A DNA stretch of 64,000 nucleotides from Escherichia phage SUT_E420: sequence record OQ990039; one strand, written 5' to 3'. Every line of letters begins with the position of its first letter. The first letter of the stretch is position 1. Position numbers and translations under genes: made by a program. The notes under the pieces were generated by a model that was not told where the DNA came from, ran no database searches, and saw only the letters and a program-made list of their open reading frames with translations. Shown piece by piece: positions 1-17,604 of this stretch.

Positions 1-334
1 ATGTAGGATCTTGTGGTAAATCAACGTAGTATATCACTCTAGCTAAATTCTTAGCGGTTTGCCAAGCCTCATCAGTTTTATCAACTTTTGGTCTCTTAGA
101 TACCCAAGAGAACTGGTTAGACTGATATACTACTTTACAGTAGGAATCTGGGAATTTACCGGAGTTTACACGGTTTTTAGTAACATGTGCAATCGCCGTC
201 ATTCCCTTTATGCCCTCACCACGACTTTCGAAATAGATATTTTTAGCAATGCAATCTATTTCTTTTGCATCGTGCGATGCCTGACTACTAAAGCTGAAGG
301 TAAGGGCAGCTACTAAAAGCAAAGCTGCCTTCAT
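1..334 (-). CDS. Secreted SleB-like cell-wall hydrolase (partial; 3' end runs off the left window edge)
   Basis: Reverse-strand ATG at 334-332 with no stop before position 1. Signal-peptide-like N-terminus MKAALLLVAALTFSFSSQA, then IYFESRGEG...VTKNRV...VVYQSNQFSWV resembling the SleB/Hydrolase_2 motif. Absent from the ORF track because it is truncated. Confidence 0.5.
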   Translation of the reverse strand, partial: MKAALLLVAALTFSFSSQASHDAKEIDCIAKNIYFESRGEGIKGMTAIAHVTKNRVNSGKFPDSYCKVVYQSNQFSWVSKRPKVDKTDEAWQTAKNLARVIYYVDLPQDPT

Positions 335-339
335 TCTTT

Positions 340-657
340 TTACTCCTGCCAATCATATTCAACACGATTGGGATTTTCTTTATACCCTAAGTCAAGCAAA
401 TCATTACGCATATTTTGCTTAGCTACTGGGTTCGAGGTTACTAGTACCACTTTCTTTGGTCTCTGCCCAAATTCTAAGAGTAAACGAAGAATTTGATAAC
501 CTTCCATACCATCTACAGCCAAGTCATTATCCATATAAACGAAATGGCCGGTGGTATCAGTTTTATTCAGAAACTCTACAGCGGCTTCTGGGGTTCGAAT
601 GATAATGTCCATTCCGTGAAGATTACGCACATCATCAATCAAAATATGAAAAGTCAT
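340..657 (-). CDS. Stand-alone receiver (CheY-like REC) domain protein, function unknown
   Basis: 105 aa. ILIDD acidic pair, YMDNDL putative phospho-acceptor Asp, VVLVTSNP and LGY align to CheY receiver landmarks. SD-like GAGGCT upstream of ATG. Confidence 0.45.
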   Translation of the reverse strand: MTFHILIDDVRNLHGMDIIIRTPEAAVEFLNKTDTTGHFVYMDNDLAVDGMEGYQILRLLLEFGQRPKKVVLVTSNPVAKQNMRNDLLDLGYKENPNRVEYDWQE

Positions 658-1107
658 AATAGCCTCGTTTCATCAATTTAAAAATATATTATACAGATAA
701 CTTAGTAACTTAGTAAATTAGCAAATACATTTTTAAATTGTGAAACTAGTAAACCGATAAACAGCCTAGAGGCGCCACAGGCCATATCTTATGAGCCATG
801 TACCTTTGATCTAGGGTTTGAATCATCAACGAATACTTTGCATCTTTTAGCTTTAGAAGTTTAGAAGTTTGAGTTCTTTAAACTTTTCAGCTTTCATACT
901 TAAATGTTGATCTTTGAAGTTGTGTCGGTAATATCAACGACGCTTTGTTCTTACGTGTCAGCTTAAAAGGCTGGTGTAATAAACATAATCTCCAATAGAT
1001 TATACTTTATAGTATGGTCAGCGGTCTTATTTAACCCCGTATTTCAACCGCTGCTGCGAGGTAAGATGCTTGGGCTTTCGTCTACCGATTTACTAGCTTT
1101 TAAATTA

Positions 1108-2052: not shown

Positions 2053-2754
2053 TCAAATTTTCATTTTTTCGATCATAGCTGCAACACAATAGCTTTCAAC
2101 TAAGGCATCAAATGCAGGATCATGCTTAACCGGATAGATCCCATAACGAATGGTGTCCATCTTCTCCATTTTAGCTTTTGCCCAGCTAATACCTTCAGCC
2201 TCTAGATCTTTGTAACTATAATCAGCTTGCATCCAGAGATTACGAAGAGATCGAACATTGCCCAAATTCCAGAATTTCCACGGAACTACCTCTTCATTGG
2301 TTCCAGCATGGAATGTGTTTGCAGAGTAGATAGTCATATCAAACTCTGGGCCATTACCATAATACAAAGCATTTTCGCCTAGAGCCAACTCCATAATATT
2401 TTGAGCCATAGAGAAGGCAGCATAGTTTGAGCCAAATTTATTAGTGCAATGATGTTTACCATTTTGGAAGGCAATCAGTTTTGGATTACGTTCCTTCATA
2501 GCTTCCATAATGTGAATAGCAGACGGGCTATTTTTAGCTTGATCCATCCAGAATGCTAGAGTAGATGCTGTAACTTTAGCACCAGAATTAAGCTGATCTT
2601 GTACATCCAAAGTAACAAATACTAGATCAGGGTCTTTATCAATTCCATGCATAGCCACAAAAGCGAAAGAAGGCATTGCGATATGAGTAGTACCACAATC
2701 TCCTGGAGTTCCCAGAGATTCAATATCTAGCATACCAAATGGTTTTACTTTCAT
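2053..2754 (-). CDS. Putative DEDD-type 3'-5' exonuclease (Rv2179c-like)
   Basis: 233 aa. N-terminal MLDIESLG (Asp/Glu exo motif I) and downstream His/Asp-containing segments. Assignment from motif resemblance only. Confidence 0.45.
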   Translation of the reverse strand: MKVKPFGMLDIESLGTPGDCGTTHIAMPSFAFVAMHGIDKDPDLVFVTLDVQDQLNSGAKVTASTLAFWMDQAKNSPSAIHIMEAMKERNPKLIAFQNGKHHCTNKFGSNYAAFSMAQNIMELALGENALYYGNGPEFDMTIYSANTFHAGTNEEVVPWKFWNLGNVRSLRNLWMQADYSYKDLEAEGISWAKAKMEKMDTIRYGIYPVKHDPAFDALVESYCVAAMIEKMKI

Positions 2755-3931: not shown

Positions 3932-4381
3932 TTAATTTATTAACTGTAAGCTTCTTTTAATTTCAGACCTTACTTGCATCAAAAGGACTCCTAAAGTATT
4001 ATCCCCGATGCCTCGGCAAACACCCCAATATGTATCTCCCCAGGTATTTCCTTCGATCAAAGTTGCATTTTCTGTTGCTAACAGTTTATCTCTTAAATCA
4101 GGAATTGCAAACTTTAATCGTAAAAGCTCTAGCATTACATCATCTTTTACTTTATCCCAGTCAGAGCGTAGGGTTAATTTACGTCCTCTACGTTTAGCAA
4201 CTCCTGCATTTAGGGAGCGGAGTACATGAGCTACATCATCTTTTTGGTCGGATTTCATAGCCTGAAAAGCATGTTCTACAGTATCAGCATGCCATATCTC
4301 ATTTAGATATTCGAAAGTAATTGGTGATAAATAAAAGTTAGATAAGAAACTATAAGTACCTTTAAATTCAGTAATCTTCAT
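3932..4381 (-). CDS. NADAR (YbiA-like) domain protein, putative ADP-ribose-processing hydrolase
   Basis: 149 aa. FLSNFY...HAFQAMK...EGNTWGDTYWGV matches NADAR/DUF1768 landmarks. Start overlaps the stop of the upstream ORF. Confidence 0.65.
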   Translation of the reverse strand: MKITEFKGTYSFLSNFYLSPITFEYLNEIWHADTVEHAFQAMKSDQKDDVAHVLRSLNAGVAKRRGRKLTLRSDWDKVKDDVMLELLRLKFAIPDLRDKLLATENATLIEGNTWGDTYWGVCRGIGDNTLGVLLMQVRSEIKRSLQLIN

Positions 4382-4739: not shown

Positions 4740-5216
4740 TCACATCTCAGCCATTTCAGCTTCAGTAATAACTGTATTACATAAGGCGTCTACAGCCTCA
4801 TTACCACTAATACCAGAATGTCCTTTAACCTTAATAAAGGTAGGGTTAGTATTATGAAAGTTGATATACTGCTGTGTTAATTTAAATGCTTCCTGCCAAA
4901 GTTCTAGATTAAGAGGAACTTCACCATCTGCTTTCTTCCAGCCTTTCCTTTGCCAAGAAAACATCCAACTTTCCATGCCATTTTTGCAATAAGCAGAGTC
5001 AGTATAGATAGCAATTGGTCTATTATCTTTTTTAACAGACCAACGTAGGGCTTCTACGATAGCTGTGAGTTCCATCTCATTATTTGTAGTTTTAGGATTA
5101 TAACCAGATTTAGAACCTAAACGATCGTCGTTATCATCATAGACAATAAAACCCCAAGCACCTGGACCTGGATTAGACTTACAAGCACCATCTGTGTAAA
5201 TGTGGAAAACCGACAT
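4740..5216 (-). CDS. rnhA: Ribonuclease H (RNase HI-like)
   Basis: Start taken at internal ATG (5216) overlapping the upstream stop. MSVFHIYTDGACKSNPGPGAWGF aligns to the RNase HI N-terminus; conserved acidic residues later. Confidence 0.85.
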   Translation of the reverse strand: MSVFHIYTDGACKSNPGPGAWGFIVYDDNDDRLGSKSGYNPKTTNNEMELTAIVEALRWSVKKDNRPIAIYTDSAYCKNGMESWMFSWQRKGWKKADGEVPLNLELWQEAFKLTQQYINFHNTNPTFIKVKGHSGISGNEAVDALCNTVITEAEMAEM

Positions 5217-5497
5217 TATACCTCCCAACTAATTTTAAGACCCATGTCTACAAAGGCGGCTTCTCGGTAGTATTGAGAGAGATGATACCCCTTATCCGAT
5301 AAGGTTTTTAGTACCGATTTAGCGGCTCCTGGCATTTCTCTAGGATTATATAGCCACCTAGCGTAAGGATTATCTCGAATAATTACTTCTGTATTTCCAG
5401 ACTTAGCAGCTTCTACAATCTTTTCTTCTATAAACTTTAGAAAAGCGGGTACTTCTGTTAATCCTGCAAGTTCTTGGGCTTCTTTGGCTGAAATCAT
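5216..5497 (-). CDS. Hypothetical protein
   Basis: 93-aa ORF in an operon-like overlap chain. Confidence 0.4.
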   Translation of the reverse strand: MISAKEAQELAGLTEVPAFLKFIEEKIVEAAKSGNTEVIIRDNPYARWLYNPREMPGAAKSVLKTLSDKGYHLSQYYREAAFVDMGLKISWEV

Positions 5498-7179: not shown

Positions 7180-8321
7180 AAGAAATCTCCAAATTCATTA
7201 CCCAGATCTTTCAGAGTATCAGTAGAGGTCTCAGTTACCTGACCTACACGGTAGGCTGCACCAATCTGGATTTCTTGTGGAGCAGGCTGTAGAGAAGTAG
7301 TATCCAACCAGTTCATAATCCACGGAATAGGGTTTTTGGTGATTACTGGTAAATGACTAGGCCATTCTACACCGATGTGCATAAATGCATTACGTCCCAC
7401 AAAATACAGATATTCTTCTAGAAGTTCTGCATTCAAGCCAATCAGACTACGACCTTTGAAAATGAAATGACCCCATTCAATTTCAGTTTTCAGAGTTTTC
7501 AGGAGCTGTGCTGGTGCTTTAGCCACTGCTTCATCTACCAGATCTTTGTCAAATTGCTGAAACATAATCTGGATGATTGCTTTGGACATCTGAGTGTGCA
7601 GAGCTTCATCTTTAGCGATTAATTGCAGATTTTTAGCAATACCTTGCAGAATATCGTTCTCTGCTAATGCAAAGGTACATGCAAAGGATGCGTAAAACTG
7701 CATTGCTTCCAGACCATAGATCGCAAAGTAAGCGTCTAATAGTTTAGCCTGAGTTTCACGTTTAACTTCAGGGAACTCAGTTTCTGGATATGTATTGTCG
7801 CCACGATGATCGCGTACTGCGATGAAATACTGACCTAACTGGTACAGTTCATCGAATAGTTCAACAGAATCAGCGATGCGCGCGAATGCTTCTTGGTTTT
7901 TGGTTACAGAATCAATAAATTCTGCTGGATCAGTCAGCACATTACGAATAATATTGCTATAAGCACGACTATGCAGGTCTTCAAAATAGCTCCACTGTTT
8001 GAGCATACCTTCCAATTCTGGACGACTTACAAGCGGCATAATAGCTGCTTCAGGGGCACGACTAATAAAGGAATCAGTTTGAGTTTGCCATGCTAAGTTC
8101 AGGAGTGTAATTTCCTGAATTTCTCGTGGGAGATTAGGCCATTGTTTCTTATCTGCTTCCAGACTGATTTCAGTTTCAGTCCAAAATTGAGAGCGCTGCA
8201 GAAGTGCCAGACGTTCTAGTTCTGGATGTGCTACACGTACATAATCTGCGATACCGAGAGAATCTCCCAGGAAAAGGTCGGCGTTAGTATGATCCCAATT
8301 CAGGTTTAGTAAAGTAGTCAT
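7176..8321 (-). CDS. nrdB: Ribonucleotide reductase class Ia beta subunit
   Basis: 381 aa, typical R2 length; adjacent to nrdA with a homing endonuclease gene in between. Confidence 0.9.
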   Translation of the reverse strand: MTTLLNLNWDHTNADLFLGDSLGIADYVRVAHPELERLALLQRSQFWTETEISLEADKKQWPNLPREIQEITLLNLAWQTQTDSFISRAPEAAIMPLVSRPELEGMLKQWSYFEDLHSRAYSNIIRNVLTDPAEFIDSVTKNQEAFARIADSVELFDELYQLGQYFIAVRDHRGDNTYPETEFPEVKRETQAKLLDAYFAIYGLEAMQFYASFACTFALAENDILQGIAKNLQLIAKDEALHTQMSKAIIQIMFQQFDKDLVDEAVAKAPAQLLKTLKTEIEWGHFIFKGRSLIGLNAELLEEYLYFVGRNAFMHIGVEWPSHLPVITKNPIPWIMNWLDTTSLQPAPQEIQIGAAYRVGQVTETSTDTLKDLGNEFGDFL

Positions 8322-8352
8322 TGATTTTCCTCTTTCTCACTATTTCAGGAAT

Positions 8353-8381
8353 ATTATAGCAAATCTGGTAGCGATTAGCAA
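8353..8381 (-). promoter_or_regulatory. T5-type early promoter (minus strand) upstream of nrdB
   Basis: Reverse strand: -35 TTGCTA (8376-8381), 17-nt spacer, -10 TATAAT (8353-8358). Confidence 0.5.
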
Positions 8382-8387
8382 GTAAAA

Positions 8388-8870
8388 TTATAAACTATCA
8401 AGCTCCAATAGTTTAGCATCGCGCCATTCTATAGCATCCTCTAATTCTTTGAATGTTTTAGTATGTTTTACACCTTTTCTAGCAATCTGGACTTGGTAAG
8501 ATCCGCTTGCTTTTTGGTGTATATTCTTAATACCTAACTTATTGTCTTTGTGCGCTCCGACATTCTTTCCATTGTTAAATCTATCAGATGCTAATAAATT
8601 AATTGCTCTATTATCATGACGTATTCTGTTGTCATGGTCTACTTCTTTTGGAATGTATCCATGAGTGATATAGAATGCTAGGATATGTGCATAGTATTTT
8701 TTACCCCTTACTTGCATTACTATATACCCTGAGCATTTTTCTAGAGAACCTGCTTCTTTGCCAGCAAACTTAGTATTAAAGGATTTATCTTCTCTAGGTT
8801 TGTGGGTAAAGATTCCAGTTTCTGGATTATAGTCAAATAACCCAGCTATTTCTTTATATTTTTCTTCCAT
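8388..8870 (-). CDS. HNH homing endonuclease (free-standing, between nrdA and nrdB)
   Basis: 160 aa. HGYIPKEVDHDNRIRHDNRAINL is a classic HNH motif; C-terminal AP2-like DNA-binding segment. Intergenic placement between functionally linked genes. Confidence 0.8.
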   Translation of the reverse strand: MEEKYKEIAGLFDYNPETGIFTHKPREDKSFNTKFAGKEAGSLEKCSGYIVMQVRGKKYYAHILAFYITHGYIPKEVDHDNRIRHDNRAINLLASDRFNNGKNVGAHKDNKLGIKNIHQKASGSYQVQIARKGVKHTKTFKELEDAIEWRDAKLLELDSL

Positions 8871-8902
8871 AATCTAAAATTACAGCTATGATAGGCCTAA
8901 TA

Positions 8903-8920
8903 AAGGGGCTTTCGCCCCTT
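8903..8920. terminator. GC hairpin (AAGGGGC-TTTC-GCCCCTT), bidirectional terminator candidate
   Basis: 7-bp stem with A-rich 5' and T-rich 3' flank; lies after nrdA on the minus strand. Confidence 0.5.
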
Positions 8921-8925
8921 ATTTA

Positions 8926-11259
8926 TTATAATTGACAACCACCGGATGCACATCCAGCAGCAGCTTCTTCACCTGCACCTCCACCATTTGCAGTATTGAA
9001 GTTTGCATAGTAGAAAGTTTTCCACCCATACTTAACAGCAGTCATGAAATCACGAACTACTACTGGGCCAGGAATGATTTCATTCTCAAACTTGGTGTAG
9101 TCATAGTACATATTCGTACTGATAGACTGACTGAAGAATTTCTGCATAGTTGCTACCCACTTGATCCACTCGATACGATCTACATCATAAGCCAGTTTAT
9201 AGCTCATTAACGTTTCCCAATCGGTTGCACCTGGAGCAATTGCAATTACTTTATTTACTGCACTACCCTTGATAGATACAATCTTACGAGGTGGTTCGAT
9301 AGAGTTAGTAACACCTAACAGAACAGAAGAACTTTCTCCCGGCATCTGAGCAGTCAGAACAGAGTTACGCATACCATATTTCAGAATATCTGCACGCAGA
9401 GACTCCCAATCCATTTCTAGACCTACGGATACCAGTTCATCAACAGTTTTCTTGTACGTGTCGATTACCAGAATTCCTTTAGATGGTTTAGTACGATCAA
9501 ACCACTCACATGCACCCTGTTCTTTAGCTAGGCGTACAGAGGCTTTATGCAGGAAGTAAGACAGTTTTTCAGCCTCACGGTGAATCCAGTTACGAGCTTC
9601 AATACCTTCATAAGCCAGACCTTCTGCTGCCATTGCACCTGCTGCGTTCATCAGGCCAATACCAACATTACGACGTTTCTTAGCCGTATATTCCATAGTT
9701 GGGAACGGATAATCCTGAATTTCAATAATTGTATCAACGAATTTCAGAAGGATGTAGCAAGTTTTTTCCCACTCAGCCAGAGATTCCATGCGTCCAAGTA
9801 CAACACCGCCTAAGTTACACAGAGATACTTCACCAATATCCTCCGGCTTCATTTGATCAAGTTGTTCTTTTGTTTTATACAGTTCCGTGATATGATGGAA
9901 CGGGCGTGTAGGCTGAGTAATTTCAACACAAAGGTTTGTCATACGGATCGGATCAAGGAAGTTACCGTGACGATTAGATTCCCCGATGTGATGAGCATAC
10001 ATACGTCCTGTTTCCATTCGGATACGTAGCCAAGTATCTAGGATTTCTTTTGCAGAGACTTTAGGAGCTGCTGGAACTGTTTTTCCTTCGTGGTCGATCT
10101 TTGTAAGAGATGCCACACGTTTCTCCGCTGCCACGTAGATTTCTTCAAATTTAGCCTCGTCATCACTATAAAACGCTTCATGAACTTCTGGAGCATAGAA
10201 GTATGACATTAGCGTAATATCTTCGTTTTTAAGATAACGTTTTAACAAAAGATTGTTAAAGCTCAGAGAATAGTCCATCTTATCGATTTTATTCTCATCT
10301 GTAGCACGTTGTTGCTTAACCTGCATCAATTGAATGATTTCAGGGTCGAAGTACGTATAAGACACTGTGGCAGAACCACCACGAGTTTGCTGAGTATTGG
10401 CCTTTACTGAGCGGTCAATGTGTCGATAATATGGCAGTTTTCCGGAATGCGGGAATGCCCCATTTCGCACCGGATCAGCAATTGATCGGCTTTCAAGATG
10501 ATACCCGATTCCCGCTCTGGCTGCGACCATTTTGAAGACGATGTGCTCGGCGGTGTCGATTGAATCCAACGTGTCAGTGGAATCCACGAGGCAGCAACTA
10601 GCAAATCCACGGTCACTAGAGCGCAGACCAACCAGTGGCGGCGTAGGAATGTTGATTTTGTGGAGTGACATTGCGTTGTAGAGGTCGATTGCATCTAGAA
10701 TTGTCCAGTTAGGTTGAGATAACATCGCCATTGCCATACCCATGTAGGCAAACTGCGGAGTTTCATAGATTTCACCAGTGGCTATGTTACGACGGGAATA
10801 CTTATCAAAGAACTGTTTCAGCCCACCACTAGTAAAAAGACGGTCACGATCATGGTCGATAACCTGATTCAGAGCTTCAAATTGCTCATCGGTAATCCAT
10901 GCACTCATGTCTTCCCATGCACCTACGCTAACCATATGGTCATGGAAGAAGCGCAGAGAAGGTGGTTCGAAGGAATCATAGAGGCGTTTACGCATTTGCG
11001 CAAGACGTAATTCCTTTGCTGGCACATCATATGCTGGATTATCTTTGATAAGACTTTCAGCAGCTTTAATTAATGCATCCATCAGAGTGTCGGAATCTAC
11101 AACCCCTTTAGGCAGAGTTTTTTGAGCAGCCATAGTAATGGCTGACCAACTTACATCAACTGTTTTGCAACCATACTCCGCCCAACCATTGAGTTTTTCA
11201 GGAGCAAAGTCTTCTACAGTACCGTCACGTTTAATTACTTTTTCAATGCGATGGCTCAT
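8926..11259 (-). CDS. nrdA: Ribonucleotide reductase class Ia alpha subunit
   Basis: Start moved to the ATG giving MSHRIEKVIKRDGTVEDF (ATP-cone) with AGGAAAG SD; the track ORF extends 35 codons further upstream. Cys-containing C-terminal tail. Confidence 0.9.
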   Translation of the reverse strand: MSHRIEKVIKRDGTVEDFAPEKLNGWAEYGCKTVDVSWSAITMAAQKTLPKGVVDSDTLMDALIKAAESLIKDNPAYDVPAKELRLAQMRKRLYDSFEPPSLRFFHDHMVSVGAWEDMSAWITDEQFEALNQVIDHDRDRLFTSGGLKQFFDKYSRRNIATGEIYETPQFAYMGMAMAMLSQPNWTILDAIDLYNAMSLHKINIPTPPLVGLRSSDRGFASCCLVDSTDTLDSIDTAEHIVFKMVAARAGIGYHLESRSIADPVRNGAFPHSGKLPYYRHIDRSVKANTQQTRGGSATVSYTYFDPEIIQLMQVKQQRATDENKIDKMDYSLSFNNLLLKRYLKNEDITLMSYFYAPEVHEAFYSDDEAKFEEIYVAAEKRVASLTKIDHEGKTVPAAPKVSAKEILDTWLRIRMETGRMYAHHIGESNRHGNFLDPIRMTNLCVEITQPTRPFHHITELYKTKEQLDQMKPEDIGEVSLCNLGGVVLGRMESLAEWEKTCYILLKFVDTIIEIQDYPFPTMEYTAKKRRNVGIGLMNAAGAMAAEGLAYEGIEARNWIHREAEKLSYFLHKASVRLAKEQGACEWFDRTKPSKGILVIDTYKKTVDELVSVGLEMDWESLRADILKYGMRNSVLTAQMPGESSSVLLGVTNSIEPPRKIVSIKGSAVNKVIAIAPGATDWETLMSYKLAYDVDRIEWIKWVATMQKFFSQSISTNMYYDYTKFENEIIPGPVVVRDFMTAVKYGWKTFYYANFNTANGGGAGEEAAAGCASGGCQL

Positions 11260-11624: not shown

Positions 11625-12386
11625 TTACACCTTCCCCATGTCTTTAAAAATATCATAGAATGCTTTAGACTCAACAGAACGAACGTTATCAATCAATTCG
11701 ATCATTGAGAATGGGGCATTTTCGTATTTTTCATAGACTTCCATAAGGAGTGCTAGACCTGAGTCACCTTTAATGTCTTTCTGAGCTATATCTCCGCAGA
11801 TAATTAAACGGCAGTCTTGTCCTACACGAGTTAGGAGACAAATCATTGCCTCAACGGAAATATTCTGAGCTTCATCGACAATTACATAGGAGTTGTTGAA
11901 AGTTCTGCCACGAGCATGTTCGACAGCCAAAAATTTAATTTTCTGACGTTCGACATATCCTTTATACGCATGATCGCCGATGGCCCATTTCATACCATCA
12001 GCTATTGGCTCCAACCAAGGCTCTAGCTTTTCCGCTAGATCACCAGGAAGCATACCAAGAGACTTACCTAGAGGTTCATTAGGACGTACGAGAATCACTT
12101 GCTCAATATCTGAGTGAATGTCTGCGAGTTCCTGAGCTGCAAGAACGGACGGAATAAAGGTTTTACCAGTACCTGGCTCACCGATACCCACAGTCACTGT
12201 GTTGTTCTTGATCATATTGATATATGATTTTTGCTCGCGGTTTTTACCTACTAGGGATTTAGCAACTGGGTTAGCGTAATCATTAGAAAAATCAGCCTGA
12301 ATTACGTTATTCTCATATTTGTTGCCACGCTTTCTTGAACCATTACGGTTCTCTCTTTTTTGACGTGCTTTTCCCATAAATAACAC
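11625..12386 (-). CDS. phoH: PhoH-like ATPase
   Basis: 253 aa; Walker A GEPGTGKTF and Walker B VIVDEAQN typical of PhoH. Confidence 0.9.
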   Translation of the reverse strand: MLFMGKARQKRENRNGSRKRGNKYENNVIQADFSNDYANPVAKSLVGKNREQKSYINMIKNNTVTVGIGEPGTGKTFIPSVLAAQELADIHSDIEQVILVRPNEPLGKSLGMLPGDLAEKLEPWLEPIADGMKWAIGDHAYKGYVERQKIKFLAVEHARGRTFNNSYVIVDEAQNISVEAMICLLTRVGQDCRLIICGDIAQKDIKGDSGLALLMEVYEKYENAPFSMIELIDNVRSVESKAFYDIFKDMGKV

Positions 12387-15283: not shown

Positions 15284-15473
15284 GGGTTTAAACGCCGCTT
15301 TGGAAAACGCATTAATGCAGCACTGGGAAACTGGCTATAAGGATGGTGTTGAATCCTGCGCTACTATGCTAGAAGTTATTGCTAATACCTTAATGGAGAA
15401 AGGCAATAAAGAATTAGCTGAGCTATTAGACAGTATTGGGCAAAACTTCAGAGAACAGGTGAAAAATGCGTAG
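15252..15473 (+). CDS. Hypothetical small protein
   Basis: 73-aa ORF overlapping both neighbours. Confidence 0.4.
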   Translation: MAFSKPMLPDKGLNAALENALMQHWETGYKDGVESCATMLEVIANTLMEKGNKELAELLDSIGQNFREQVKNA

Positions 15474-16281
15474 ATTAATTGTTATTAGCGGTGCAGGTTT
15501 GAGTGTTGAAAGTGGTGTACGAGCTTTTCGTACTGATACTGCTAGTGGTAAAGCATTGTGGGATGATTATGATCTAGAAGAAGTATGTAATATTCATGCC
15601 TTTCGTGGTAATTTTTATCATAAAACCCATATGTTTTACAACAAGCGTCGTGAAGAGCTAAAAACTGTTGAACCCAATCTTGCGCATTTGCGTATCGGTG
15701 AATGGTATAAACAATATCCAGGTCAAGTAGTAAACTTGACTACCAACGTTGATGACCTTATTGAGCGTTCTGGCGTTCCACATAATGACATTCTACACAT
15801 TCATGGATATTTAAAAGAGGTTGTTGTAGCTGATAGCTACAATAGTAGCAATAAACGGATTATTGATGTAGGATACAATTCTATTGATCCAGATGATTAT
15901 AAATGGGTTAAACCTAATGTAATCTTCTTTGGAGAGCATGCTCCAGCATATGCGGAGATGTACAATGTTTTTGATGGTATTACCAGTCAAGATATGATCA
16001 TTGTGGTTGGTTGCTCTAACCAAGTAATTAACTTCTACTGGGAATTATTTCCTGTTCTTAATTTGACTGCTGCCAAGCTAATGGTTGTTAACTACTATGA
16101 TAGTGCCCTAGCGGCGGAACCGAGCTATCAAGGTATGACTCGTAGTGAGATGTACCAGCTGGAAGAACGCGGTATCCCTTACTGGGGTAAAGGTGCGGTA
16201 GATGCTTTCAGTGATCCTGATTTTATTGCTCGTGTAGAAGCTCATTTAGGGGGTAGACCTTATGTGTCAGGAAATAAGTAA
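15466..16281 (+). CDS. Sir2-family (sirtuin-like) NAD-dependent protein
   Basis: 271 aa. N-terminal ISGAGLSVESGVRAFR matches the sirtuin NAD-binding motif GAG(I/L)SxESG(I/V)xxFR; Rossmann-like remainder. Confidence 0.7.
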   Translation: MRRLIVISGAGLSVESGVRAFRTDTASGKALWDDYDLEEVCNIHAFRGNFYHKTHMFYNKRREELKTVEPNLAHLRIGEWYKQYPGQVVNLTTNVDDLIERSGVPHNDILHIHGYLKEVVVADSYNSSNKRIIDVGYNSIDPDDYKWVKPNVIFFGEHAPAYAEMYNVFDGITSQDMIIVVGCSNQVINFYWELFPVLNLTAAKLMVVNYYDSALAAEPSYQGMTRSEMYQLEERGIPYWGKGAVDAFSDPDFIARVEAHLGGRPYVSGNK

Positions 16282-16774
16282 TACTCCAATTATTTTTCTA
16301 GACATTGATGGGGTGCTCAATTCGAGCATCTCCCACTATCATGCACCTGATGATGAAAAGATTTTCTTTGGAAGTGATTGGGTTTTCAAACCGCTTCTCA
16401 AGGCTTTTCAGGACTTTATTCGTCCTTCTCCAATAATGATTGTTGGAGTATCATCTTGGTTCTCTGTCAGAAATGAGATGGAGAACGTTCAGATTATGAC
16501 CGGATTAGGCCTTATCGATCGTTTTCTTGGTACAACGGATTTTACTGGTGGTGGATTATCTAGGGGTAATTCTGTTCTTCGCTTCGTTGAAAAGCATAAG
16601 CTCAAACATTGGTGTGTGCTTGATGATGCGGGTGCTATGATGTATCAGTATCCAACGGTTATAGTCAACGGTAGGACTGGTATAAATCTTCAAGATTTAA
16701 AAGCTGTTAGCTATATGCTAGAATTTAGCCCAGATCTTGAAATGTGTAAATCCTTACAACAATTTAAGGTGTAA
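16262..16774 (+). CDS. HAD-superfamily phosphatase-like protein
   Basis: 170 aa; N-terminal IIFLDIDGVLNS is HAD motif I (DxDG); later VLDD-like acidic motif. Start overlaps the Sir2 gene end. Confidence 0.5.
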   Translation: MCQEISNTPIIFLDIDGVLNSSISHYHAPDDEKIFFGSDWVFKPLLKAFQDFIRPSPIMIVGVSSWFSVRNEMENVQIMTGLGLIDRFLGTTDFTGGGLSRGNSVLRFVEKHKLKHWCVLDDAGAMMYQYPTVIVNGRTGINLQDLKAVSYMLEFSPDLEMCKSLQQFKV

Positions 16775-16776
16775 AT

Positions 16777-17205
16777 ATGTTCAATAATGTATTCTCTAAA
16801 GAAGCTAACCCAATTTTGGTTAACTTTTGGCGTACTCTTCCAGCTAGCCTGTATAATGAGGCTATTAACTCTTTGAAAATATGGTGTGAGAATAACGAAA
16901 TCTACTTTGCTTTTAAAGATGATATTGATGAAGCCCCCTGTATTGGTTTAATTGTTCAGGTAGAGGAGGGTCTTGAAGAGATTGTCGGCTGGAAAGAGTT
17001 AGATGAAATGGGCTTAGTTTTTGCGTTAAACTATAAGCTGTTTATGCCTGCTAAGCATCGCCTCGTTGTTAACTATAAAACTAGTGAATCTCCTGGTTTT
17101 CAAGTTAATGAACGTTACGGTTGGTCTTACTCACCAGAAGAAGTGAATGATGGTATCCAAAAACTTCGCCGTTTCGGGTATATGATCCCAGGTTTAACTG
17201 CTTAA
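16777..17205 (+). CDS. Hypothetical protein, paralog A of a tandem pair
   Basis: 142 aa; shares PCIG...MGL(V/I)xALN...(I/V)PGL blocks with the adjacent downstream ORF. Confidence 0.5.
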   Translation: MFNNVFSKEANPILVNFWRTLPASLYNEAINSLKIWCENNEIYFAFKDDIDEAPCIGLIVQVEEGLEEIVGWKELDEMGLVFALNYKLFMPAKHRLVVNYKTSESPGFQVNERYGWSYSPEEVNDGIQKLRRFGYMIPGLTA

Positions 17206-17214
17206 GGAGGCAGA

Positions 17215-17604
17215 ATGGAACAAGTATATTGGCGTCAGATTGACCCTAGTTTGGTGAAACGTGCGGAGAAGCTGCTACAACGTTGGTTGGGGGTAAGACA
17301 AGCCTCCTTCACTTTTCCTGAGCAGCAAATAGATGATCCATGCATTGGCGTTTTCCTGTCTGGATACGCCAGGGAATGGGAACTGGATTGGAATGAGTTG
17401 TCTGCTATGGGTTTAATTGTTGCCCTAAATTTCTCTTTGTTCCATCCACGTGGTTTTGCCATATGTCGTGTGCCGGATGATGGTTGTTCGCCCCATCTTT
17501 TACAGGTGGAAAATGATATTTGGGAGTACACTCCAGATATTCTCAAAGAAGCTAAAGAACAATTAAACCGTGTTGGGATATATGTTCCGGGATTAAATGA
17601 CTAA
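17215..17604 (+). CDS. Hypothetical protein, paralog B of a tandem pair
   Basis: 129 aa; homologous to the upstream ORF over its conserved blocks; GGAGG SD. Confidence 0.5.
   Translation: MEQVYWRQIDPSLVKRAEKLLQRWLGVRQASFTFPEQQIDDPCIGVFLSGYAREWELDWNELSAMGLIVALNFSLFHPRGFAICRVPDDGCSPHLLQVENDIWEYTPDILKEAKEQLNRVGIYVPGLND

What the first reader, a model, noticed from the sequence alone, without database searches (positions are those of the whole stretch)
340..657. Stand-alone receiver (REC)-like domain protein with intact phospho-acceptor pocket
The 105-aa protein aligns to CheY-type receiver landmarks (ILIDD acidic pair, central Asp in YMDNDL, VVLVTSNP) but has no output domain and no cognate kinase in the window. 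Single-domain receivers in phages are poorly characterised and could mimic or sink host two-component signalling.
Basis: partly seen in the sequence, partly recalled or inferred. Interest (0 to 1): 0.5.

Follow-up and report, generated by a model that had tools for sequence, protein, structure and literature searches.

The report
Phage T5 cREC receiver-fold enzyme gene
This small T5-like phage gene encodes a receiver-shaped protein from the already named but never tested cREC family, which most likely trims phosphate groups from damaged RNA ends and is unlikely to interfere with bacterial two-component signalling.

Summary

It is not a classical receiver. It scores 12.5 bits against Pfam Response_reg (cut-off 30.2) but 56.8 bits against cREC_REC, PF20274 (cut-off 27). 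Helices alpha1 and alpha5 are missing. The CheY K109 equivalent is absent. The family adds invariant residues that classical receivers lack: Asp45 two residues after the acceptor-equivalent Asp43 (a DxD motif), Arg21 and Asn76.

The family is nearly all stand-alone ~100-aa phage proteins. The only recurrent neighbours I found are RNA repair genes (calcineurin-like phosphoesterase, T4-type RNA ligase, P-loop kinase), in different gene orders in three phages. The phosphoesterase occurs in 5 of 27 lineages against 0 of 77 controls. T5-like phages lack that ligase.

Verdict: an already known, computationally predicted phosphoesterase family with no experimental characterisation found. The two-component sink idea is not supported. 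Interest is moderate to low.

The parts
340..657 (-). cREC (cyclic-phosphate processing receiver) domain protein, 105 aa, ortholog of T5 T5.084. Key residues are D8, D9, R11, D17, R21, D43, D45, G53, T74, N76 and Y92.
663..666 (-). GAGG ribosome-binding site, 5 nt upstream of the ATG at 657
   Evidence: Read directly from the sequence.
688..717 (-). Sigma-70-like promoter TTTACT-18-TATAAT (10 of 12 matches)
   Evidence: Consensus scan. T5 annotates a promoter at the equivalent position just upstream of T5.084. The scan as a whole found no more sites than shuffled sequence, so the T5 annotation carries the weight.
2..334 (-). Downstream gene, cut by the window edge: SleB-like cell wall hydrolase (T5.083 ortholog). 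It starts 5 nt after the cREC stop and is probably co-transcribed.
   Evidence: Pfam Hydrolase_2 E=1.5e-15. Spacing read from the sequence. Synteny in T5, HMD-P5 and falkor. A functional link to cREC is not shown.
2053..2754 (-). Rv2179c-like 3'-5' exoribonuclease, same transcription direction, 1.4 kb upstream. Candidate RNA-end partner (context only).
   Evidence: Pfam PF16473 E=5.2e-8.
3932..4381 (-). NADAR domain protein, an accessory gene absent from this position in T5. Context only.
   Evidence: Pfam PF08719 E=7.2e-22. T5 map.
15466..16281 (+). Sir2-family protein, the first gene of an overlapping pair. The literature predicts this pair to act in NAD-dependent RNA end repair in T5-like phages. 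Context only.
   Evidence: Pfam SIR2 E=4e-24. PMC9503650 section 3.7.3.
16262..16774 (+). HAD_SAK_2 ('Swiss army knife' RNA repair) phosphatase, overlapping the Sir2 gene. Context only.
   Evidence: Pfam PF18143 E=9.1e-20.

Best explanation
The gene encodes a member of the cREC family (Pfam PF20274). This is a trimmed receiver fold: five strands and three helices, with alpha1 and alpha5 missing. It has been converted from a phosphorylation switch into a small stand-alone enzyme. I propose it is an aspartate-based phosphoesterase that heals phosphorylated RNA 3' ends (2',3'-cyclic phosphate, 3'-P or 2'-P), most plausibly on tRNAs cut by host metal-independent ribonucleases during infection.

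Inferred mechanism, by analogy with receiver and HAD/DxDxT chemistry:
- D8 and D9 hold a divalent metal.
- D43 (equivalent to CheY D57) attacks the phosphorus to give an aspartyl-phosphate intermediate.
- The invariant D45 at the D+2 position acts as general acid/base for leaving-group protonation and hydrolysis, as the second Asp does in DxDxT phosphatases such as the T4 Pnkp 3'-phosphatase.
- T74, N76 and R21/R11 bind the phosphate oxygens in place of the missing Lys.

In phi92-like (ECGD1) and other phages the cREC gene lies in a kinase / phosphoesterase / RNA ligase heal-and-seal cassette. T5-like phages lack that ligase, so here it would work with other phage or host end-processing enzymes: HAD_SAK_2 and Sir2 in the same genome, the nearby 3'-5' exoribonuclease, and host ligase or CCA-adding enzyme.

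Shown: family membership, fold, conserved residues, expression signals, purifying selection and gene contexts. Inferred: the catalytic activity, the substrate and the roles of individual residues.
For: - Membership: cREC_REC 56.8 bits (cut-off 27) against Response_reg 12.5 bits (cut-off 30.2).
- Conservation: 90 representatives at 50% identity or less keep D8, D9, R21, D43, D45 and G53 invariant, and R11, D17, G47, P67, N76 and Y92 at 90% or more. All lie at the C-terminal ends of strands b1-b4, where receivers and HAD enzymes carry out phosphoryl chemistry.
- Context, L016: cREC, AAA_33 kinase, RNA_lig_T4_1, Metallophos_2 as overlapping consecutive genes.
- Context, L068: cREC, Metallophos_2, ligase, kinase in a different order.
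- Context, cultured coliphage ECGD1: cREC gp110, then phosphoesterase gp107, ligase gp106, kinase gp105.
- The phosphoesterase family lies within 5 kb of cREC in 5 of 27 lineages against 0 of 77 ThyA control loci (Fisher p=0.0009).
- In several phages the gene lies inside a tRNA array (L004, L007, L013, L017) or next to one (KVP40-like, T5-like).
- The family's definers predicted the same activity from independent neighbourhood analysis (PMC7824862, PMC9503650).
- T5 is known to face tRNA-targeting immunity (PMC11464382).
Against: - No experiment exists for any family member. PMC9503650 says so, and I found no later paper.
- T5-like phages have no ligase, kinase or Metallophos partner in this 64-kb window, and T5-like phages do not appear to be among the ligase-carrying phage records (organism counts). 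So the cassette evidence comes from relatives only 35-40% identical.
- Most of the ~27 lineages show no RNA repair neighbour at all.
- The phosphoesterase statistic carries discovery bias, because the family was chosen for being recurrent near cREC.
- I could not inspect model coordinates, so the residue roles and the clustering of invariant residues are inferred from secondary-structure positions only.
- The definers call the site metal-independent, which differs from my metal-assisted proposal.
Confidence: 0.5

Rival explanations
1. The same cREC enzyme acts on small NAD-derived molecules rather than on RNA ends. Candidate substrates are ADP-ribose 1''-2'' cyclic phosphate, cyclic ADP-ribose isomers and other cyclic nucleotide immune signals. 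This would make it an NAD-salvage or anti-signalling (anti-Thoeris-like) enzyme.
For: The family's definers give this as the alternative reading and report Nudix fusions and Sir2/NADAR links (PMC7824862, PMC9503650). This window carries NADAR 3.3 kb away and Sir2 15 kb away. One family locus has a Tad3 Thoeris inhibitor within 5 kb.
Against: In my sample of about 27 lineages, no Sir2, NADAR or HAD_SAK_2 relative of the window's proteins lies within 5 kb of cREC. That search was single-sequence phmmer, so distant homologs would be missed. The longer members I scanned had no Nudix or other informative fusion. Tad3 is a single case. The phage ADPR-1''-phosphate phosphatase described in 2026 is a Macro-domain protein, not cREC. 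The only recurrent neighbours are RNA repair genes.
Confidence: 0.2
2. One reading: a single-domain phospho-acceptor that is phosphorylated by host histidine kinases or acetyl phosphate and so drains or mimics host two-component signalling.
For: Receiver fold, with D8/D9, D43 and T74 at the CheY D12/D13, D57 and T87 positions. Receivers can autophosphorylate from small donors (my own knowledge).
Against: - Below the Response_reg threshold.
- Alpha1, the kinase/Hpt docking helix, and alpha5 are missing.
- The K109 equivalent is absent.
- An invariant Asp at D+2 would be expected to make any phospho-Asp short-lived (inference).
- The family is phage-borne, and no kinase appeared among the families listed or annotated for its neighbours.
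- The definers state it is never found with histidine kinases.
Confidence: 0.04
3. A nucleotide-metabolism phosphatase acting on free mononucleotides (for example NMP or dNMP dephosphorylation), as part of the phage's early nucleotide-pool remodelling.
For: Nucleotide-metabolism genes are common within 5 kb of family members: ThyA in 3 lineages, Thy1, DHFR, dCMP deaminase in 2, RNR, adenylosuccinate synthetase and nucleoside deoxyribosyltransferase. In this window ThyA, DHFR and RNR lie 5-11 kb away.
Against: Such genes are generally abundant in the early regions of large virulent phages, so the association is probably positional. None is immediately adjacent or recurs in an operon-like arrangement with cREC, unlike the RNA repair genes.
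Confidence: 0.1
4. A non-catalytic small binder: a sponge for a phosphorylated ligand, or a regulatory subunit that docks onto another phage or host protein through the sheet face left exposed by the loss of alpha1.
For: It is very small and stand-alone, and it often sits among small accessory or anti-defence genes such as ArdA, AbiEii and Tad3. The loss of two helices exposes surface.
Against: The invariant residues are four carboxylates plus Arg, Asn and Thr at a canonical phosphoryl-transfer site. That pattern is typical of catalysis, not of binding surfaces.
Confidence: 0.1

Closest known systems
cREC (cyclic-phosphate processing receiver) domain, Pfam PF20274, defined by Iyer, Anantharaman, Krishnan, Burroughs and Aravind 2021 (PMC7824862)
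   Same: It passes the family model well above threshold. It has the same stand-alone ~100-aa architecture, the same conserved aspartates, the same phage distribution and the same RNA repair neighbourhoods. T5-like orthologs already carry this name in UniProt and some GenBank records.
   Different: Nothing separates it from the family. The T5-like branch simply lacks the adjacent ligase/kinase/phosphoesterase cassette and the Nudix fusion seen elsewhere.
Classical response-regulator receiver domains (CheY, Spo0F; Pfam PF00072)
HAD-superfamily DxDxT phosphatases, such as the 3'-phosphatase domain of T4 polynucleotide kinase-phosphatase and HAD_SAK RNA repair phosphatases
   Same: A DxD motif at the end of a central strand, where the first Asp would be the nucleophile and the Asp two residues later the general acid/base. 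A Ser/Thr motif follows on a later strand. The role is in RNA 3'-end healing next to kinase and ligase genes. (The chemistry is my own knowledge. The motif and context are.)
2H phosphoesterases and calcineurin-like phosphoesterases of RNA repair systems (for example the Clostridium thermocellum Pnkp phosphoesterase domain)
   Same: The predicted job is the same, opening or removing 2',3'-cyclic and terminal phosphates before ligation. Calcineurin-like phosphoesterases are the most frequent cREC neighbours.
   Different: The folds and catalytic residues are unrelated. They co-occur with cREC rather than replace it, which suggests cREC carries out a distinct step.

Membership tests
cREC_REC (PF20274) | Scores above the curated Pfam gathering threshold over the full domain | tested here: met
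   56.8 bits against a cut-off of 27, E=3.8e-15, residues 4-87 on model positions 2-86 of 88.
cREC_REC (PF20274) | Receiver-like Rossmannoid alpha/beta fold | tested here: met
cREC_REC (PF20274) | Conserved catalytic aspartates at positions equivalent to the receiver acidic pocket | tested here: met
   D8, D9, D43 and D45 are invariant in 90 diverse members. D8/D9 align with CheY D12/D13 and D43 with D57.
cREC_REC (PF20274) | Not associated with histidine kinases. Found instead with RNA repair or NAD/ADP-ribose processing genes. | tested here: met
   No kinase is annotated or listed near the gene in T5, HMD-P5, falkor or about 27 other lineages. The Pfam lists were truncated to 25 families, so this is not exhaustive. 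RNA repair cassettes occur in L016, L068 and ECGD1.
cREC_REC (PF20274) | Cyclic-phosphate phosphoesterase activity (the function that gives the family its name) | not testable with these tools
   A prediction only. PMC9503650 states the family is experimentally uncharacterised, and I found no later paper.
Classical response regulator receiver (PF00072) | Scores above the curated Pfam gathering threshold | tested here: not met
   12.5 bits against a cut-off of 30.2, E=0.17.
Classical response regulator receiver (PF00072) | Complete (beta-alpha)5 fold including alpha1 (kinase docking) and alpha5 | tested here: not met
   The model has strands at 4-7, 18-20, 39-42 and 69-72, short strands at about 93-94 and 100-102, and only three helices (23-32, 53-62, 77-90). 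The alignment to CheY needs a 12-residue deletion where alpha1 lies.
Classical response regulator receiver (PF00072) | Conserved quintet D12, D13, D57, T87, K109 (CheY numbering) | tested here: not met
   Four of five are present. The K109 column is N95 here and is not conserved in the family.
Classical response regulator receiver (PF00072) | Cognate histidine kinase or Hpt partner | tested here: inconclusive
   None is annotated in the T5-like regions examined or in family neighbourhoods. Host kinases cannot be excluded by sequence analysis.
HAD superfamily (DxDxT phosphatases) | Nucleophile DxD motif at the end of strand 1 of a HAD Rossmannoid core with squiggle/flap, plus motif III Lys | tested here: not met
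   The DxD lies after strand 3. The fold searches return receivers, and no HAD enzyme appears in the lists shown. There is no conserved Lys.
Toprim domain | Conserved Glu after strand 1 and DxD after strand 3, with structural similarity to primase/topoisomerase Toprim cores | tested here: not met

The most novel reading that the evidence does not exclude
cREC would be the first receiver-fold domain shown to be a true multiple-turnover enzyme. It would use a receiver-type aspartyl-phosphate with a HAD-like Asp at D+2, and serve as a phage counter-defence that either repairs tRNAs cut by host ribonucleases or destroys a cyclic-phosphate immune signal. In T5-like phages it works without a dedicated ligase, which could point to an undescribed end-healing route that hands RNAs to host enzymes.
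Probability: 0.2. Interest if true: 0.65.

Novelty: already known. Interest (0 to 1): 0.3.

Why it matters
If the predicted activity holds, this would be a compact new catalytic use of the receiver fold. It would also be another phage tool against RNA-targeting immunity, in a model phage (T5) where genetics is feasible. T5 already counters tRNA-cleaving defences with its own tRNAs (PMC11464382), so an RNA-end healing enzyme would add to that picture. As things stand, this is a correctly spotted member of a family that is already named, is in Pfam, and is already used in some GenBank annotations of T5-like phages. The remaining value is experimental: nobody has tested the family.

Tried and rejected
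- **Solved structure of a family member:** none found. Sequence and profile searches of the PDB gave only weak receiver hits and spurious repeat-protein hits such as TAL effector Hax3 and designed armadillo proteins.
- **NCBIfam and PADLOC:** no match.
- **Domain fusions:** the longer family members carry only an HNH_3 endonuclease or unassigned extensions, which is uninformative.
- **tRNA proximity:** this looked striking, but against a ThyA control matched for contig size it is not significant (5/25 against 3/47, p=0.09). I report it as a trend only.
- **Sir2, NADAR and HAD_SAK_2 relatives of the window's own proteins:** none lies near cREC in other lineages.
- **The aRES / phage phosphatase preprint:** its enzyme is a Macro-domain protein, not cREC.
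- **Rfam scan of the gene and its 450-nt upstream gap:** nothing credible.
- **Tool limits:** The afdb50 fold library was unavailable.
- **Toprim and HAD membership:** considered because of the DxD motif and rejected on the fold-search results.
- **Model coordinates:** I could not read them, so the spatial clustering of invariant residues was not measured.

Full report
**1. Observation**

The window is a T5-like phage. Its first 3 kb are 100% identical to Escherichia phage SUT_E1520 and 99.7% identical to other T5-like isolates (T5_ev212, EC148). It is the ortholog of T5 T5.084 (96% identical), annotated 'hypothetical protein, similar to KVP40.0304'.

Several lines show it is an expressed, selected gene:
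- A TTTACT-18-TATAAT promoter-like site lies at 717..688, where T5 annotates a promoter.
- A GAGG site sits 5 nt before the ATG.
- dN/dS is 0.089 against T5 and 0.18 against the 57%-identical falkor ortholog.
- tblastn finds it in 493 phage records, mostly Salmonella and Escherichia T5-like phages plus about 50 KVP40-like Vibrio phages.

**2. Fold and residues**

An AlphaFold2 model built on 16 homologs is confident (pLDDT 90.6, pTM 0.84). It shows strands at 4-7, 18-20, 39-42 and 69-72, short strands near 93-94 and 100-102, and only three helices at 23-32, 53-62 and 77-90.

An exhaustive profile search of 1.84 billion representatives finds only 428 clusters at E<=1e-3, almost all 95-125 aa. 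In an alignment of 90 of them, D8, D9, R21, D43, D45 and G53 are invariant. R11, D17, G47, P67, N76, L87 and Y92 are conserved at 90% or more.

| This protein | CheY |
|---|---|
| D8 / D9 | D12 / D13 |
| D43 | D57 |
| D45 | N59 (the D+2 position) |
| T74 | T87 |
| Y92 | Y106 |
| N95 (not conserved) | K109 |

The comparison also needs a 12-residue deletion where CheY has alpha1. So the receiver fold and four of the five landmark residues are there. The Lys, alpha1 and alpha5 are not, and the family adds its own invariant Asp, Arg and Asn.

**3. Family**

- Pfam places the protein in cREC_REC (PF20274) at 56.8 bits against a cut-off of 27. Response_reg reaches only 12.5 bits against 30.2.
- PHROGs places it in phrog_1479, unknown function.
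- NCBIfam and PADLOC give nothing.
- Some GenBank T5-like records and UniProt entries already name the ortholog 'cyclic-phosphate processing receiver domain-containing protein'.

The family was defined in 2021 as a divergent receiver never found with histidine kinases. It was predicted to process 2',3'-cyclic RNA ends or cyclic ADP-ribose derivatives (PMC7824862). A 2022 survey states that it remains experimentally uncharacterised (PMC9503650). I found no later experimental work.

**4. Context in this phage**

The gene is transcribed leftward. A SleB-like cell wall hydrolase gene starts 5 nt after its stop. Beyond the window edge, T5 and its relatives carry a YqeY-like gene, RNAX and the large tRNA cluster within 1.2-3 kb.

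Upstream in the same orientation lie:
- a 212-aa unknown protein;
- an Rv2179c-like 3'-5' exoribonuclease (2053-2754);
- DUF7022;
- a NADAR gene (3932-4381), which T5 itself lacks at that spot;
- RNase H.

PhoH (11625-12386) and an overlapping Sir2 + HAD_SAK_2 pair (15466-16774) lie further along. The 2022 survey singles out that pair in T5-like phages as a predicted NAD-dependent RNA end repair module. The window has no tRNA gene, and no relative of the RNA ligase, kinase or phosphoesterase described below.

**5. Context across the family**

I collected about 30 loci from metagenomic and viral contigs, which collapse to about 27 independent lineages.

A Pfam tally of 191 neighbouring ORFs of 100 aa or more showed no dominant partner. 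RNA repair families appeared as single hits, alongside nucleotide-metabolism genes and occasional anti-defence genes such as Tad3, ArdA and AbiEii.

All-against-all clustering of every ORF of 50 aa or more then revealed one recurrent family in four lineages. Pfam identifies it as a calcineurin-like phosphoesterase (Metallophos_2). Next to it lie T4-type RNA ligase and a P-loop kinase. The gene orders differ between phages:

| Phage / locus | Gene order |
|---|---|
| L016 | cREC, kinase, ligase, phosphoesterase (overlapping consecutive ORFs) |
| L068 | cREC, phosphoesterase, ligase, kinase |
| ECGD1 (cultured coliphage) | cREC gp110, two small ORFs, phosphoesterase gp107, ligase gp106, kinase gp105 |

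Different orders with the same gene set argue for functional linkage rather than inherited synteny. An HMM of the phosphoesterase family hits 5 of 27 cREC lineages and 0 of 77 control loci centred on phage ThyA (Fisher p=0.0009). This figure carries discovery bias, because the family was picked for being recurrent near cREC.

The ligase is present in 813 phage records, but only 14 of them are Salmonella phages, against roughly 270 Salmonella T5-like records that carry cREC. So T5-like phages evidently lack it.

**6. tRNA proximity: a lead that did not hold up**

In L004, L007, L013 and L017 the cREC gene lies inside a tRNA array. In KVP40-like phages, L036 and T5-like phages it flanks one.

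| Sample | cREC loci with 2 or more tRNAs within 5 kb | ThyA controls | One-sided p |
|---|---|---|---|
| All contigs | 7 of 30 | 3 of 77 | 0.005 |
| Contigs of 35 kb or more | 5 of 25 | 3 of 47 | 0.09 |
| Contigs of 100 kb or more | 5 of 13 | 3 of 22 | 0.10 |

I therefore treat this as a trend consistent with a tRNA-related role, not as evidence.

**7. Mechanism**

The shown facts are a receiver fold stripped of alpha1 and alpha5, an invariant carboxylate cluster at the strand ends, an invariant Asp two residues after the acceptor-equivalent Asp, and recurrent placement in heal-and-seal RNA repair cassettes.

From established chemistry (my own knowledge):
- Receivers form an aspartyl-phosphate on the Asp after strand 3, with a metal held by the acidic pair after strand 1.
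- The D+2 residue tunes how fast that phosphate is hydrolysed.
- HAD/DxDxT phosphatases, including the T4 Pnkp 3'-phosphatase, use an Asp at +2 as general acid/base to turn the same intermediate over rapidly.

The simplest reading is that cREC is a receiver turned into a phosphohydrolase. D43 would be the nucleophile and D45 the acid/base. D8/D9 would bind metal. T74, N76 and R21/R11 would hold the phosphate in place of the missing Lys.

The cassette context points to phosphorylated or cyclic-phosphate RNA 3' ends as the substrate. Because cREC co-occurs with a calcineurin-like phosphoesterase rather than replacing it, it probably performs a distinct step, such as removing the 2'-P or 3'-P left after ring opening. 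This last point is speculation.

In T5-like phages there is no dedicated ligase. The healed ends would have to be passed to other enzymes: HAD_SAK_2/Sir2, the neighbouring exoribonuclease, and host ligase or CCA-adding enzyme. That step is the weakest part of the account. T5 is documented to face tRNA-cleaving immunity (PMC11464382), which makes the biology plausible but does not test it.

**8. Rivals**

- **ADP-ribose-derived or cyclic-nucleotide substrates.** This reading remains open. NADAR and Sir2 are in this genome, and one locus has a Tad3 neighbour. It found little support in my neighbourhood sample.
- **Two-component sink.** This is contradicted by the failed Response_reg membership, the missing docking helix and Lys, and the absence of any kinase partner in the regions examined.
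- **Nucleotide-pool phosphatase.** This rests only on loose positional association.
- **Non-catalytic binder.** This fits the small size but not the catalytic-looking invariant residues.

**9. Verdict**

The functional part is not supported. The gene is an ordinary, already named member of the cREC family.

My analysis adds four things:
- an independent confirmation of the RNA repair cassette link, with a control;
- the residue-level differences from classical receivers;
- the note that the invariant DxD suggests HAD-like turnover;
- a negative result on tRNA proximity.

Novelty: already known. Interest: about 0.3, because the family is still untested and T5 would be a tractable system for testing it.

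Noticed in passing
window 3932-4381 (-): A NADAR-domain gene (Pfam E=7e-22) sits between the DUF7022 gene and the T5.090 ortholog. T5 itself has only a promoter at that spot, so this is a variable accessory insertion. Salmonella phage HMD-P5 annotates its copy as 'swarming motility protein'.
   Followed up: partly
window 2053-2754 (-): This 233-aa protein matches the Rv2179c-like 3'-5' exoribonuclease domain (PF16473). T5 and many relatives annotate it as 'putative metallopeptidase', which is probably a propagated mis-annotation.
   Followed up: partly
window 2-334 (-) and L022:4474-4890: A SleB-like cell wall hydrolase starts 5 nt after the cREC stop. Its N-terminus looks like a signal peptide (my reading of MKAALLLVAALTFSFSSQA), and it is distinct from the main T5 endolysin (my own knowledge). 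The same hydrolase family lies next to a truncated cREC in an unrelated contig (L022), but in the opposite order.
   Followed up: partly
window 658-1107: A 450-nt stretch upstream of the gene has no convincing ORF and no Rfam match. In phage falkor the equivalent gap holds a homing endonuclease, and HMD-P5 has one two genes downstream. The region looks like a hotspot for endonuclease insertion.
   Followed up: partly
window 15466-17604 (+): Sir2 (15466-16281) overlaps a HAD_SAK_2 RNA repair phosphatase gene (16262-16774) by 20 nt. Two tandem DUF7415 genes follow (16777-17205, 17215-17604). HMD-P5 annotates these implausibly as 'tail tube protein'.
   Followed up: partly
L073 (IMGVR_UViG_2974638963_000001) 7741-9295: A more distant T5-like contig keeps the Rv2179c-like exonuclease and the SleB-like hydrolase. 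No cREC ORF was detected in the 390-nt gap between them, which suggests the gene is dispensable or was lost in that lineage.
   Followed up: no
L036:1065-1140; L139:419-490; L089, L092, L106: ARAGORN called a phage tRNA with a four-base anticodon (cccc), possibly a frameshift-suppressor-like tRNA, next to a cREC locus. Among the ThyA control loci it called a tRNA with anticodon cta (amber-suppressor-like, labelled Pyl) and three tmRNA genes on viral contigs.
   Followed up: no
L028:4882-4966: A tRNA-Leu(taa) gene ends 26 nt before the cREC ORF (4992-5372) on a 167-kb viral contig. This is the tightest tRNA-cREC juxtaposition seen.
   Followed up: no
PDB profile search, alignment A2: The cREC family profile gives a summed hit (E=1.4e-6) to TAL effector Hax3 repeats. 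The motif 'VVAIASNxGGKQALE' resembles the cREC 'VvLVTSNPVGrxnM' strand-helix junction. None of the eight repeat matches is individually significant (i-Evalue 2e2 or worse), so I judged it a repeat-summation artefact.
   Followed up: partly
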